From an uncultured Acidobacteriaceae bacterium (lineage in GTDB: Bacteria > Acidobacteriota > Terriglobia > Terriglobales > Acidobacteriaceae): a stretch of DNA of 64,000 nucleotides. This document shows, in pieces, positions 9,116 through 57,483 of this stretch; position 1 is the first letter of the stretch, and each line of letters opens with the position of its first letter. The stretch covers positions 30,378 through 94,377 of the forward strand of contig CAIMKZ010000076.1 in the NCBI GenBank assembly GCA_903842065.1, written 5' to 3'. The translations under genes were made by a program, and so were the position numbers. The notes beneath the pieces are model-generated. The model did not search any database, was not told the origin of the DNA, and saw nothing but the letters and a program-made list of their open reading frames with translations.

Positions 9116-9775
9116 ATGGCACTCACGGCACAGGAACGCGCAAGCAAAATCAAAGTCATCATCTTCGACGTGGACGGTGTATTCACCGACGGAACCATCT
9201 GGCTTGTCCCGGGTGCTGCGCACGGCGGTCTCTTGGATAAGATCAAGAGCAATGACAGCAAGGACACGAGCCTCGGCGTGCAGTCCGACATCCTGATGGA
9301 AGTCAAAGGCTACGGCGCGCACGACGGTATGGGAATCTCGCTGGCCAAACTGGCAGGGCTCAAGTGCGGCATCATCACCAAGCGAATCTCTGAGACGGTG
9401 GCGACTCGCGCACGGGACTTGAAGCTCGAATACATCTACCAGGGCCAGGCCTTCAAGATGAAGCCGATCGAGGAGATCTGCGCCAAGGAAAGCATCGGGC
9501 TCGACGAGATATGCTATGTGGGCGACGACATTATCGATCTGCCGGTGATGCGCCGCTGCGGATTTGCCGTCGCGGTGGCCAATGCGCGCCCGAATGTGAA
9601 GGCCGAGGCACATTACGTGACGCCGAATCGCGGCGGCTATGGCGGCGCGCGAGATGCGATTGAATTCATCCTCGAGGCCAAGGGAATTCTGGACAAGTGC
9701 GTTGAGGACTATCTCGACGAGGGCAAGTCGATTGCGCCGTCGATGGACCTGAGCGCCAGCGGAGGCCCAAGGTGA
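9116..9775 (+). CDS. kdsC: KDO 8-phosphate phosphatase (KdsC/YrbI HAD family)
   Basis: [11 protein letters not shown] motif I, DGMGI, GDDIIDL, AVANA; ATG 9116. Confidence 0.88.
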
Positions 9776-10461
9776 GCAGGCGGGCCGTTGTACTGCTGAG
9801 CGGGGGGCTGGACTCGGCCACCGTGCTGGCCATTGCGCGCAGTCAGGGTTATGAGTGCTACGCGCTCTCATTTGCATACGGCCAGCGGCACGCGTGGGAG
9901 TTGGAAGCGGCTGAGCGTGTGTCGGACGCACTCGGGGCCAAAGAGCACAAGATCGCAACGATCGACCTGCGCTTCTTCGGCGGATCTGCTTTGACGGCGG
10001 AGATCGATGTGCCAAAAGGGCGCGCGCCGGATGAGATGAGCCACGGGATTCCGATTACTTATGTGCCGGCGAGGAATACGATCTTTTTGTCGTTTGCTCT
10101 GGCGTGGGCCGAGGTTCTCGACGCGCAGGACGTGTTTATCGGCGTGAATGCACTGGACTACTCGGGCTATCCGGATTGCAGGCCGGAGTATATCGAGGCC
10201 TTTGAGAAGATGGCGAACCTGGCCACGAAGGCCAGTGTCGAGGGGGTTCAGCGGCTGAAGATTCATACGCCGCTGATCGCGATGACCAAGGCGCAGATTA
10301 TTGCCAAGGGGATTGAGCTGGGCGTCGATTACTCGCTTACCTCAAGCTGCTACGATCCAGGGCCCGATGGCAGGCCGTGTGGCGGGTGCGACTCGTGTCT
10401 GCTGCGCGAGAAGGGGTTCAAGGAGAACGGGATCGTGGACCCGGTAAGGGCAAGCTGTTAG
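9772..10461 (+). CDS. queC: 7-cyano-7-deazaguanine synthase
   Basis: [25 protein letters not shown]...CGGCDSC Zn ligands. Confidence 0.96.
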
Positions 10462-10564
10462 CTATTAGCTTTTAGCTGCTAGCTTGTTTTGTGCGGATTC
10501 AACGGTGACGACTTTTGTAAGGATGAGCTAATAGCTAGAAGCTAGAAGCTAGAAGCTAAGAGCT
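10453..10564. repeat. Inverted pair of heptameric AGCT-NNN arrays (5 + 6 units)
   Basis: AGCT at 10453, 10460, 10467, 10474, 10481 and 10526, 10533, 10540, 10547, 10554, 10561. Confidence 0.9.
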
Positions 10565-10570
10565 GCTTTT

Positions 10571-11407
10571 ATGTACTCCGTTAAAGAGATCTTCTATACG
10601 TTGCAGGGCGAGGGTGCGCAGACCGGGCGCGCAGCGGTGTTCTGCCGCTTTGCGGGGTGCAATCTGTGGTCGGGGCGTGAGGAAGATCGGGCTGCGGCGG
10701 TTTGCAGGTTCTGCGATACGGATTTTGTTGGGACTGCCGGACAGAGCGGTGGGAAGTTTGCTTCGGCTGAGGAATTGGCGGAGGCGATTGCGGCTTGCTG
10801 GCCTTTGGGCAAGGCAACTGCTCCGGATGTCAGTGGTGGGTTGAGTGTTGAACTATCCCAGGTCCCCAAATGCGAGGGACCTGGGGCACCCAGCGTTGTG
10901 GCTGGTTCAGAAAAGACAACCGCAGGTCCTTCGACTCCGGTCGCAGCGGCGACCTCCGCTCAGGATGACAGTGGCTTTAATGTTGATGTCAGTGGCTTGA
11001 GTAAAGTTGATGACAGTGGCGGGCAGAAGTTTGTTGTTTGTACGGGTGGCGAGCCGCTGTTGCAACTCGATGTCGCGCTGATTGAGGCGTTGCACGCGCG
11101 CGGGTTTGAGATCGCTGTCGAGACCAATGGCACCTGCGCAGCTCCGGCGGGACTGGATTGGGTTTGCGTGAGCCCAAAGGCGGGCGCCGATTTGAAGCAA
11201 ACAAGCGGCGACGAACTCAAGCTGGTGTTTCCGCAGCAGGGGATCGAGCCGGAGCAGTTTGCAGGCTTGAGTTTTCGCTATTTCTTTTTGCAGCCGATGG
11301 ATGGACCGGATCGAGAGCGAAACACCGAGCTTGCCGTGCACTATTGTCTAGAGCATACGCGGTGGCGGGTGAGCTTGCAGACGCACAAGTTGCTGGGGAT
11401 CGCGTAA
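10571..11407 (+). CDS. queE: 7-carboxy-7-deazaguanine synthase (radical SAM, CX14CX2C type) with ~70-aa internal insertion
   Basis: KEIFYTLQGEG, FCRFAGCNLWSGREEDRAAAVCRFCDTDF, VCTGGEPLLQ, ETNG, VSPK, SLQTHK. Confidence 0.95.
   Translation: MYSVKEIFYTLQGEGAQTGRAAVFCRFAGCNLWSGREEDRAAAVCRFCDTDFVGTAGQSGGKFASAEELAEAIAACWPLGKATAPDVSGGLSVELSQVPKCEGPGAPSVVAGSEKTTAGPSTPVAAATSAQDDSGFNVDVSGLSKVDDSGGQKFVVCTGGEPLLQLDVALIEALHARGFEIAVETNGTCAAPAGLDWVCVSPKAGADLKQTSGDELKLVFPQQGIEPEQFAGLSFRYFFLQPMDGPDRERNTELAVHYCLEHTRWRVSLQTHKLLGIA
10856..10893 (+). repeat. REP-like palindrome family A, copy 1 (inside queE, in frame)
   Basis: TCCCAGGTCCC-AAATGCGA-GGGACCTGGG-GCACCCAG; 10-bp stem. Confidence 0.9.
10922..10970 (+). 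repeat. Second palindromic element (GCAGGTCCTTCGACTCC...CGCTCAGGATGACA type) inside queE
   Basis: Internal hairpin GGTCGC-AGCG-GCGACC; resembles an intergenic repeat family I recall from other genomes; only one copy in this window. Confidence 0.6.
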
Positions 11408-11410
11408 AAG

Positions 11411-11440
11411 CAGGGACTAAGGGACGGAGGGAGTCGGGAA
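11411..11440 (+). repeat. Octameric GGGAC-type tandem repeat after queE stop
   Basis: cagggact aagggacg gagggagt cgggaa. Confidence 0.7.
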
Positions 11441-23864: not shown

Positions 23865-23905
23865 TTCTGGCCGGTTCCACAATTGGCCGGTTGAGAGTCG
23901 ATCTT

Positions 23906-23943
23906 TCCCAGGTCCCCAAGTGCGAGGAACCTGGGGCACCCAG
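23906..23943 (+). repeat. REP-like palindrome family A, copy 2
   Basis: TCCCAGGTCCCCAAGTGCGAGGAACCTGGGGCACCCAG. Confidence 0.9.
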
Positions 23944-23986
23944 AGTTGTGGTGGGTTGAGAGATTGAGCGGGTTATTGGGAGCAAT

Positions 23987-45824: not shown

Positions 45825-45912
45825 AGGGGCTCCGTGGGAGTTGTTGTGACTTTCAGTTTATCGGATGGGGGCAGATGGTTTGCTGGGCTGTGGCGGGTCG
45901 AGGGTTCGTGAT

Positions 45913-45947
45913 TCCCAGGTCTCAAAATCGAGACCTGGGGCACCCAG
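45913..45947 (+). repeat. REP-like palindrome family A, copy 3
   Basis: TCCCAGGTCTC-AAAATC-GAGACCTGGG-GCACCCAG. Confidence 0.9.
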
Positions 45948-46060
45948 TTTTGTAGGTGGTGAGTGTGGCTGGTTTGGGGGTGGGAGTTCCACACCGGCAG
46001 CGGGGAGGGTAGACGATACAATCGCAGGCAGACGGTTTGTGCGTTCAGGAGTGAAGAGCG

Positions 46061-48362: not shown

Positions 48363-48471
48363 GGCGAGATTTCCTATAGGGTCAGCCCCTATATGTTTGC
48401 GTGAGCAGATGTACGGTCTAAAGCCCATACCCATTAAGACAGAATAAGAAGGCAGGGCAAGAGTAAGGGTC

Positions 48472-48509
48472 TCCCAGGTCCCCAAAAGCGAGGGACCTGG
48501 GGCATCCAG
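48472..48509 (+). repeat. REP-like palindrome family A, copy 4
   Basis: TCCCAGGTCCC-CAAAAGCGA-GGGACCTGGG-GCATCCAG. Confidence 0.9.
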
Positions 48510-48537
48510 GTTCAGTGGGTTAATAAGGGAGAAGGAT

Positions 48538-57402: not shown

Positions 57403-57427
57403 GTTGTGGCTGGTTGTAAGTTGTGGT

Positions 57428-57462
57428 TCCCAGGTCTCAACATCGAGACCTGGGGCACCCAG
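57428..57462 (+). repeat. REP-like palindrome family A, copy 5
   Basis: TCCCAGGTCTC-AACATC-GAGACCTGGG-GCACCCAG. Confidence 0.9.
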
Positions 57463-57483
57463 AGTTGAGTGAATGAGGAGAGT

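What the first reader, a model, noticed from the sequence alone, without database searches (positions are those of the whole stretch)
10814..11024. QueE carries a ~70-aa in-frame insertion made of palindromic repeats
Seen: QueE is 278 aa with an extra segment between WPLG and KFVVCTGGEP. It contains a full copy of repeat family A (10856-10893, read as SQVPKCEGPGAP), a second palindromic element (10922-10970) and four GATG(T/A)CAGTGG units (from about 10827 and 10965-11016). The frame stays open and the CX14CX2C motif and C-terminus are intact. Known: Burkholderia-type QueE is about 210 aa with only a few residues here; in-frame palindromic insertions are described for Rickettsia RPEs. Inference: non-coding repeats have been exapted as protein sequence in a surface loop of a radical SAM enzyme, by stacked insertions.
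Basis: partly seen in the sequence, partly recalled or inferred. Interest (0 to 1): 0.68.

Follow-up and report, generated by a model that had tools for sequence, protein, structure and literature searches.

The report
Selfish hairpin repeats translated inside QueE
A soil acidobacterium's queuosine-pathway enzyme QueE carries a 70-residue floppy loop made of mobile hairpin DNA repeats that landed in frame. The same repeats sit in frame in at least 16 other housekeeping genes, so this is a clear new example of a phenomenon already known from Rickettsia and a few other bacteria.

Summary
The queE gene (10571-11407, 278 aa, Cx14CxxC type) has 70 extra residues (K81-G150, nt 10811-11020) exactly where the solved B. 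multivorans enzyme is continuous.

The insert consists of:
- a copy of repeat family A (306 copies in this genome);
- a copy of family B (77 copies);
- a 24-nt tandem amplification of B's tail.

Family A is a REP-type element. Two intact RAYT transposase genes and one truncated one are each flanked by inverted A copies.

Sister alleles from metagenomes already carry B. A 90-nt block containing A is unique to this genome, so the insertions were stacked.

Fifteen of 17 species of the genus have an empty site. Across about 130 relatives, the insert state needs at least 15 gains or losses, so this loop is a recurrent landing site.

A or B copies also lie in frame in ValRS, IleRS, TrmD, TrmFO, MnmE, MnmG, Era, UvrC, PriA and others.

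The insert is predicted to be disordered. The QueE core is conserved, queE is single-copy, and the rest of the queuosine pathway is present. The insert is therefore most likely tolerated selfish DNA, with no evidence of a new function.

This is a new member of a known kind (Rickettsia palindromic elements, intragenic REPs).

The parts
10571..11407 (+). queE, 7-carboxy-7-deazaguanine synthase, Cx14CxxC type, 278 aa, single copy in the genome
   Evidence: ORF list. TIGR04508 at 350 bits. 4NJG hit at E 4.9e-85. It is the only full QueE match in G000.
10811..11020 (+). Whole repeat-derived in-frame insert: 210 nt, 70 codons, K81-G150
   Evidence: Gap between the two TIGR04508 / 4NJG stretches. Empty site in 15 of 17 species of the genus. 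pLDDT below 50 and no secondary structure.
10811..10835 (+). Duplicate of the B head (AAGGCAACTGC, read as KATA) followed by a B-tail-like unit (TCCGGATGTCAGTGG)
   Evidence: Direct repeat D2: 10820-10836 versus 10958-10974, 88% identical. The KATA KATA head duplication is present in the sister alleles.
10818..10907 (+). 90-nt (30-codon) block absent from the two sister alleles; it holds the family A copy. Boundaries are ambiguous by a few bases.
   Evidence: DNA alignment A2 with L031 and L033, columns 44-133.
10836..10903 (+). Family A REP-type element. Its hairpin arms are 10857-10866 and 10876-10885 (10 of 10 complementary). It is read as SQVPKCEGPGAP.
   Evidence: nhmmer 67.4 bits, E 1.8e-18. 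Inverted repeat I3. 100% identical over 38-44 nt to other genomic copies.
10912..10971 (+). Family B element: conserved head ...CAACCGCAGGTCCTTCGACT, inner palindrome GGTCGC/GCGACC (10939-10944 / 10949-10954), conserved tail CGCTCAGGATGACAG. It is read as KTTAGPSTPVAAATSAQDDS.
   Evidence: nhmmer 59.3 bits. Family printout. Shared with sister alleles.
10964..11020 (+). 24-nt tandem array, 2.5 copies, amplifying the B tail (GATGWCAGTGG units). It is read as DDSGFNVDVSGLSKVDDSG.
   Evidence: TRF score 75. Pattern count 4 against 0.08 expected. A similar array is present in the sister allele L033.
9772..10461 (+). queC, directly upstream; this synteny is conserved in the sister contigs
   Evidence: ORF. 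QueC Pfam family on the upstream gene of L031, L032 and L033.

Best explanation
The 70 extra residues of this QueE are translated copies of two genus-specific dispersed palindromic DNA repeat families that landed in the coding sequence of the connection between helix alpha-1 and strand beta-2.

Family A is a REP-type hairpin element. Its cognate REP-associated tyrosine transposase (RAYT) genes lie elsewhere in the genome, each bracketed by inverted A copies. Family B has a conserved head and tail around a hypervariable palindrome.

The insert grew stepwise:
1. A B copy, with a duplicated head, was already present in the common ancestor of this allele and two metagenomic sister alleles.
2. B's tail was amplified by 24-nt slippage.
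3. A 90-nt block carrying an A copy entered just upstream of B in this lineage only. This recreated the A-then-B module found 11 other times in the genome.

The inserts persist because they are multiples of three and stop-free in the frame used. They also sit in a connection that precedes a beta strand, on the face of the radical-SAM partial barrel opposite the active site, where they form a disordered surface loop.

The enzyme most likely still makes CDG. The insert itself is tolerated selfish DNA with no demonstrated function.

Shown: repeat identity, copy numbers, the RAYT association of A, empty sites in relatives, the order of events, conservation of the core, and predicted disorder.
Inferred: RAYT-mediated transposition as the insertion mechanism, the position relative to the active site, and retained activity.
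For: Insert position. TIGR04508 and 4NJG align contiguously across the site.

Repeat families. A has 306 copies and B has 77. Both are confined to the genus: 145 and 58 exact core hits here, against 0-2 in the sister family.

RAYT association. The Y1_Tnp hits at C99:20338-20622, C5:140407-140646 and C62:14633-14785 (truncated) each have an A- copy on one side and an A+ copy on the other. The two full-length ORFs (C99, C5) score 95 and 97.8 bits on NF047646 REP_Tyr_transpos, cut-off 80.

Order of events. The core tree groups this allele with P0002 and P0003 at 98/96 support. The DNA alignment shows the shared B, the tail array shared with P0002, and the private 90-nt block. The A copy is 100% identical over 38-44 nt to other copies, so it is recent.

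Composite module. There are 12 A-then-B composites with a 6-11 nt gap.

Empty sites. 15 of 17 species of the genus lack the insert. The insert state needs at least 15 changes on the tree, at least 5 of them forced by strongly supported branches.

Genome-wide pattern. In-frame copies split or sit inside Pfam domains of ValRS, TrmD, Era, GcvPB, IspE, Dus, TrmFO, ABC-F, UvrC, an MFS transporter, PriA, MnmG, IleRS, MnmE, a RimO-like enzyme and penicillin amidase.

Tolerance:
- The insert is modelled at pLDDT 27-46 with no secondary structure, between H66-76 and E153-158.
- The model's best fold match is 4NJG.
- The core deviates from consensus at 2 of 129 highly conserved columns; the family median is 1 and the maximum 5.
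- queE is single-copy.
- tgt, queA, queD, queF and queC are present.

Not an assembly artefact. A 919-nt scaffold from another metagenome assembly is 100% identical to 10520-11438.
Against:
- Activity of the enzyme is inferred, not measured.
- The terminal branch of this allele is long (0.32 against a median of 0.09), which could mean some relaxation of constraint.
- The N-terminal half of both AlphaFold models is of low confidence. The loop's position relative to the active site therefore rests on general barrel topology.
- No transposase was linked to family B.
- A lacks the GTAG/CGTC tag of the described REP superfamilies and never forms inverted doublets, so the transposition mechanism may differ from the textbook one.
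- The strong recurrence at one loop could reflect targeting, or even selection, rather than mere tolerance.
Confidence: 0.8

Rival explanations
1. The loop has been co-opted. The disordered, acidic Gly/Ser/Asp-rich insert would give QueE a second role such as partner binding, localisation or regulation. Alternatively, the hairpins would act in the mRNA as pause or stability elements.
For: The same loop is occupied in about 40 of the 131 scored relatives, and whole clades retain an insert. In QueE, B is always read in one frame (A[GD]PST...AQDD) and in one orientation. There is a precedent for a peripheral QueE region that is largely dispensable for catalysis yet carries a second function: E. 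coli E45-W67 (PMC11142719).
Against: Insert content, length (20-99 aa) and reading frame of A differ between lineages. Sister alleles differ even in B's palindrome. Fifteen of 17 species of the genus do without the insert. The conserved stretches of the insert are the DNA-level conserved parts of the repeat family, not protein-specific ones. The same peptides occur in unrelated enzymes. The list of relatives is biased towards insert-bearing sequences because candidates were chosen by shared words. The RNA fold of the whole insert is not exceptional, z = -1.86.
Confidence: 0.1
2. The allele is an assembly artefact or an inactive, decaying gene.
For: The genome is a draft of 106 contigs. Repeats promote chimeric joins. 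Read support could not be checked. The terminal branch is long.
Against: An independent scaffold is identical across the whole gene. The frame is open, the insert is a multiple of three, and sister alleles share its B and tail parts. Only 2 of 129 conserved columns deviate, and the cluster cysteines are intact. The gene is single-copy in an otherwise complete pathway.
Confidence: 0.05
3. The 90-nt A block did not transpose into queE. It was copied in by homologous recombination or gene conversion between the resident B copy and another A-then-B composite locus.
For: Eleven other A-then-B composites have the same spacing. The block is preceded by a B-tail-like unit that the sister alleles lack. 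The three sister alleles have different palindromes between near-identical B heads and tails, as if B copies were exchanged.
Against: No other composite matches the QueE copy over its full length. The best match is C12:7315-7411 at 86.6% over 97 nt. RAYT genes with flanking A copies show that a transposition route exists. All 61 adjacent A-A pairs are co-oriented, which fits directional insertion next to an existing copy as well as recombination does.
Confidence: 0.25

Closest known systems
Rickettsia palindromic elements (RPE; Ogata et al. 2000 Science 290:347, Ogata et al. 2002, as cited in PMC10969869 and PMC3733652)
   Same: Dispersed palindromic repeats inserted in frame in many unrelated housekeeping genes. 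They are translated as extra peptide segments thought to be compatible with fold and function, and the same elements also occur between genes.
   Different: The phylum differs: these are free-living soil Acidobacteriota with 4-7 Mb genomes. The sequence families are unrelated. The units are shorter (about 60-75 nt) and stack into composites. A cognate RAYT gene is present for family A. The same loop is hit repeatedly in many lineages.
Intragenic GTAG/CGTC-tagged REPs (Di Nocera et al. 2013, PMC3733652)
   Same: REP elements found inside known genes in several species, including tRNA synthetases, UvrC-type repair genes and tRNA-modification genes. They encode 20-80 extra residues, often as dimers or clusters. 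The authors argue that they are tolerated rather than functional.
   Different: Family A carries neither the GTAG nor the CGTC tag (consensus). Its multimers are all head-to-tail rather than mostly inverted. Acidobacteriota appear in that paper only for Koribacter TIR-type elements.
REP/BIME and REPIN-RAYT systems of Escherichia and Pseudomonas (REPtrons; from my own knowledge: Nunvar 2010, Bertels and Rainey 2011, Ton-Hoang 2012)
   Same: A high-copy short hairpin repeat, mostly extragenic. The RAYT gene is bracketed by inverted copies. Different modules form mosaic clusters, as in BIMEs.
   Different: There are no inverted doublets (REPINs). The modular A-then-B composites have fixed spacing. 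A noticeable share of clusters, about 6-9%, lies in frame inside conserved genes.
E. coli QueE region E45-W67 (PMC11142719)
   Same: A lineage-specific peripheral segment of QueE that is largely dispensable for queuosine synthesis.
   Different: That segment is structured (two helices), lies elsewhere in the fold, is conserved among enterobacteria and has a shown second function. The segment here is repeat-derived, variable and predicted to be disordered.

Membership tests
QueE, Cx14CxxC type (TIGR04508) | Whole-protein score above the curated cut-off | tested here: met
   350.2 bits against a cut-off of 240.
QueE, Cx14CxxC type (TIGR04508) | CX14CX2C cluster motif and conserved C-terminal substrate-binding block | tested here: met
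   C30, C45 and C48 and the QPMDG / SLQTHK blocks are invariant columns. Only 2 of 129 conserved columns deviate.
QueE, Cx14CxxC type (TIGR04508) | CDG synthase activity | not testable with these tools
   Only indirect evidence: the gene is single-copy and queC, queD, queF, tgt and queA are present.
REP / RAYT system (family A) | Short palindromic repeat in high copy number, mostly outside genes | tested here: met
   306 copies in 4.09 Mb. About 28 of 305 repeat clusters pass an in-frame coding test on both flanks; the rest do not.
REP / RAYT system (family A) | RAYT gene flanked by inverted copies of the repeat | tested here: met
   Three loci have an A- copy on one side and an A+ copy on the other. 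The two intact ORFs score 95 and 97.8 bits on NF047646, cut-off 80.
REP / RAYT system (family A) | GTAG or CGTC tetranucleotide tag next to the hairpin (superfamilies of PMC3733652) | tested here: not met
   Neither tag is present in the family consensus on either strand.
REP / RAYT system (family A) | REPIN-type inverted doublets | tested here: not met
   Of the adjacent A-A pairs, 61 are co-oriented and 0 are inverted.
REP / RAYT system (family A) | RAYT binds and cleaves the hairpin; the element is mobile | not testable with these tools
   Only copy-number differences between species and near-identical copies suggest recent activity.
REP / RAYT system (family B) | Cognate transposase next to copies | tested here: not met
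   No B copy lies within 1.2 kb of any of the 9 Y1_Tnp matches.
Rickettsia palindromic elements | In-frame insertion of a dispersed palindromic repeat in many unrelated conserved genes | tested here: met
   QueE plus 16 Pfam-verified genes.
Rickettsia palindromic elements | Membership of RPE-1 to RPE-10 sequence families of Rickettsia | not tested
   The phylum and the consensus differ. I claim only that it works like an RPE, not that it is one.
MITE | Terminal inverted repeats plus target-site duplication | tested here: inconclusive
   Conservation of solo A copies ends about 21 nt before and about 14 nt after the hairpin, without terminal inverted repeats. No clean empty site close enough to read a duplication was available.

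The most novel reading that the evidence does not exclude
The QueE alpha-1/beta-2 loop would be a self-reinforcing landing pad. Each resident element carries the target for the next one, so REP arrays grow directionally inside a coding loop. Supporting observations are that all 61 adjacent A pairs are co-oriented, that A sits at a fixed 6-11 nt from B heads in 12 composites, and that several alleles start their A copy right at the Trp77 codon. This would make RAYT-driven repeats a fast generator of disordered protein loops across this genus, concentrated in translation and tRNA-modification enzymes. Some of these loops, possibly the clade-wide QueE ones, may since have acquired a role.
Probability: 0.15. 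Interest if true: 0.65.

Novelty: new member of a known kind. Interest (0 to 1): 0.42.

Why it matters
This case shows, with its order of events resolved, how selfish hairpin repeats lengthen an essential-pathway radical-SAM enzyme by a third without breaking it. In this acidobacterial genus that is routine: at least 17 conserved genes are affected in one 4-Mb genome, and one loop has been refilled many times across lineages.

Practical consequences:
- Such inserts inflate and fragment domain hits, which affects annotation. Pfam's Radical_SAM model just reached its cut-off here.
- They mark loops that tolerate large insertions, which is useful for protein engineering of QueE and the other enzymes.
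- They provide a free-living, RAYT-linked counterpart to Rickettsia RPEs in which the mobilisation mechanism could be tested.

Tried and rejected
An identical independent scaffold is used as a weaker substitute.
- First census. It used 11-mers with up to 1 mismatch. I discarded it because about 66 chance matches are expected and it even missed the QueE copy. It was replaced by iterated nhmmer profiles.
- GTGG target for family A. I considered this because A's 5' arm starts at or near a GTGG or TGG in QueE alleles. The conservation profile of 139 solo copies shows only a weak GG there, so it remains a lead.
- AlphaFold. Both runs (25 and 110 sequences) left the N-terminal, cluster-binding half at low confidence. 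I therefore made no distance measurement from the loop to the active site.
- QueE structure paper. The 4NJG paper was not in the searchable library.
- RNA folding. Folding the whole insert gave z = -1.86, which is unremarkable.
- Not attempted: dN/dS on the insert (too few, too divergent alleles) and the orientation of intergenic copies relative to genes.

Full report
**1. The observation**

The ORF at 10571-11407 (+) encodes 278 aa.
- It matches the NCBIfam equivalog for Cx14CxxC-type QueE (TIGR04508) at 350 bits, well above the 240-bit cut-off. The match comes in two stretches that leave residues 79-148 unmatched.
- Against solved structures, residues 2-82 and 152-277 align to contiguous residues 23-103 and 104-229 of B. 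multivorans QueE, 4NJG.

Inside this segment:
- a perfect 10-bp inverted repeat lies at 10857-10866 and 10876-10885;
- GATGWCAGTGG occurs four times, at 10826, 10964, 10985 and 11009, against 0.08 expected;
- the last three of these units form a 24-nt tandem array at 10964-11020.

The cluster cysteines C30, C45 and C48 and the C-terminal motifs are invariant columns in alignments of 25 and 110 homologues.

**2. What the insert is made of**

A short-word BLAST of the insert against the whole draft genome (4.09 Mb, 106 contigs) shows two pile-ups and a unique 3' part.

Iterated nhmmer profiles give 306 copies of family A and 77 copies of family B. The consensus sequences are:
- A: ...GGCGGGTTGAGGGTTGTGCTTTCCCAGGTC-loop-GACCTGGGGCACCCAGTTTTGTGG...
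- B: AAAAGCAACCGCAGGTCCTTCGACT-palindrome-CGCTCAGGATGACAG

The QueE copies lie at 10836-10903 (A) and 10912-10971 (B).

The A copy is 100% identical over 38-44 nt to copies on other contigs.

A followed by B in the same orientation, with a 6-11 nt gap, occurs 12 times in the genome, including in QueE.

Exact cores of both families are abundant throughout the genus. The A core ranges from 1 to 145 hits, with this genome highest; the B core ranges from 0 to 119. Both are essentially absent (0-2 hits) from the sister family of the same order.

**3. Family A is a REP with its own RAYT**

Nine Y1_Tnp (PF01797) matches exist in the genome. Three of them are bracketed by an A- copy on one side and an A+ copy on the other, with the downstream copy starting about 10-15 nt after the stop codon:
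- C99:20338-20622
- C5:140407-140646
- C62:14633-14785, which is truncated

The two intact ORFs score 95 and 97.8 bits on NCBIfam NF047646, 'REP-associated tyrosine transposase', whose cut-off is 80. They differ from the QueE copy only by a compensatory stem change: GGTGCC/GGCACC versus GGTCCC/GGGACC.

This is the classical REPtron arrangement. That RAYTs mobilise their REPs is established knowledge for Proteobacteria and is an inference here.

Two features differ from described REPs:
- there is no GTAG or CGTC tag (compare PMC3733652);
- all 61 adjacent A-A pairs are head-to-tail and none is inverted.

No transposase was found near B copies.

**4. Empty sites, order of events, recurrence**

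Within the genus:
- 13 of 17 other species have a 9-residue loop, as in WPAGAEPGNRFVV;
- two have 14-residue loops that carry none of the repeat-family motifs;
- two carry repeats. G015 has a solo A read in another frame (PGLKSETWGTQ). G012 has a degenerate A followed by B.

Among the 120 best database homologues, about 40 carry 20-99 extra residues at this same site. These are built from B (A[GD]PST...AQDD), from A in two frames, and from at least two other repeat-like motifs (HST..AQGRLS and EGWGT). The share is inflated, because candidates were picked by words shared with the query.

A maximum-likelihood tree of the core, with the insert removed, needs at least 15 gains or losses of the insert. 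At least 5 of them are forced by well-supported branches.

This allele groups with P0002 and P0003 at 98/96 support. Their contigs are syntenic: DUF5522, a hydrolase, queC, queE, trmO.

The DNA alignment shows the following:
- the duplicated B head and the B copy are present in all three alleles;
- the 24-nt tail array is shared with P0002;
- a 90-nt, 30-codon block (about 10818-10907) holding A is found only here.

An oddity is that the three alleles have different palindromes between near-identical B heads and tails.

**5. This is a genome-wide habit, not a QueE curiosity**

I grouped the copies into 305 clusters and asked which are spanned by an open frame whose two flanks both score as coding in that same frame. 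This gave about 28 candidates.

Pfam confirmed 16 of them as insertions within or between domains of conserved proteins:
- ValRS, IleRS, TrmD, TrmFO
- MnmG, MnmE, a Dus enzyme, a RimO-like radical-SAM enzyme
- Era, GcvPB, IspE (three A copies), an ABC-F protein
- UvrC, PriA, an MFS transporter, penicillin amidase

The frames used are SQVxKxRPGAP in the sense orientation and GAPGxxxLGTWE in the antisense orientation. These are the two frames most often free of stops among all genomic A copies (183 and 221 of 279). No special coding adaptation is therefore needed.

**6. Is the enzyme still good, and where is the loop?**

- queE is the only full copy in the genome.
- tgt, queA, queD (three hits), queF and the adjacent queC are all present.
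- The core deviates from the family consensus at only 2 of 129 highly conserved columns. The family median is 1 and the maximum is 5.
- Its terminal branch is nevertheless long (0.32).
- Two AlphaFold runs put the insert between helix 66-76 and strand 153-158. They model it with no secondary structure at pLDDT 27-46, while the C-terminal half reaches 85-95. The model's best structural match is 4NJG.
- A connection that leads into a beta strand lies on the face of a (beta/alpha) barrel opposite the active site. That step is inference from fold topology, not measured, because the N-terminal half was poorly modelled.

**7. Is it real DNA?**

However, a 919-nt scaffold from a different ENA metagenome assembly, seen in two samples, is 100% identical to window 10520-11438. 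It ends in the simple tandem arrays that flank queE.

**8. Comparison with what is known**

In-frame palindromic repeats in housekeeping genes are the hallmark of Rickettsia RPEs. They have also been catalogued for GTAG/CGTC REPs in Opitutus, Thauera, Xanthomonas and others, including tRNA synthetases and UvrC-type repair genes (PMC3733652; PMC10969869).

I found no paper describing this for Acidobacteriota. Earlier notes of this scan report several analogous cases in the phylum. Those are leads that agree with my reading, not evidence for it.

E. coli QueE has a peripheral region that is largely dispensable for catalysis and carries a second function (PMC11142719). This keeps a functional reading of the loop conceivable but unsupported here.

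**Verdict**

The insert is a tolerated, stepwise-built, REP/RAYT-type selfish insertion in a permissive loop, and a new member of a known kind. The recurrent use of one loop, the strictly co-oriented arrays and the modular B element are the parts that go beyond the textbook picture.

Noticed in passing
G000 genome-wide; window 10912-10971 is one copy: Family B has a conserved head and tail around a hypervariable palindrome. Among 66 copies there are 63 distinct centres, 3-33 nt long, with covarying stems. Even the three sister queE alleles differ in it. About a dozen copies sit inside a longer imperfect palindrome of about 150 nt. How the centre turns over is unexplained.
   Followed up: partly
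G000 genome-wide: Adjacent family A copies are always head-to-tail (61 co-oriented, 0 inverted), in arrays of up to 5. The only inverted pairs are those bracketing RAYT genes.
   Followed up: partly
G000 C99:20338-20622, C5:140407-140646, C62:14633-14785 (outside the window): Three RAYT loci are flanked by inverted A copies. The C62 copy is truncated at its N-terminus, and the upstream sequence continues in another frame. Four further IS200-like Y1 transposases (C16, C95, C106, C103) are not associated with A or B.
   Followed up: partly
G000, 16 loci listed: In-frame A or B copies are notably frequent in tRNA-modification and translation genes: TrmD, TrmFO, MnmE, MnmG, Dus, a RimO-like enzyme, QueE, ValRS, IleRS, Era and the S1 N-terminus. 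This may only reflect that conserved genes are easier to recognise.
   Followed up: no
window 10453-10565 and 11411-11440: NAGCTNN-type and GGGACT-type short tandem arrays flank queE directly after the queC and queE stop codons. The independent metagenome scaffold L040 begins and ends within them (10520 and 11438), so they break assemblies.
   Followed up: no
QueE homologues P0024, P0028, P0031, P0041, P0064, P0095, P0037, P0104, P0038, P0065: Other alleles fill the same loop with further repeat-like peptide motifs not seen in this window: HST..A.A..AQGRLS..EGWGT/KGWGNQ, and PQRRRPV[VA]GD. These suggest additional repeat families in related genomes.
   Followed up: no
window 23885-23953, 45892-45956, 48452-48520, 57408-57467: Four more family A copies lie in the window, all on the + strand like the QueE copy.
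   Followed up: no
window 10571-11407: The core of this QueE sits on a long terminal branch (0.32 changes per site against a median of 0.09), although conserved columns are kept.
   Followed up: partly
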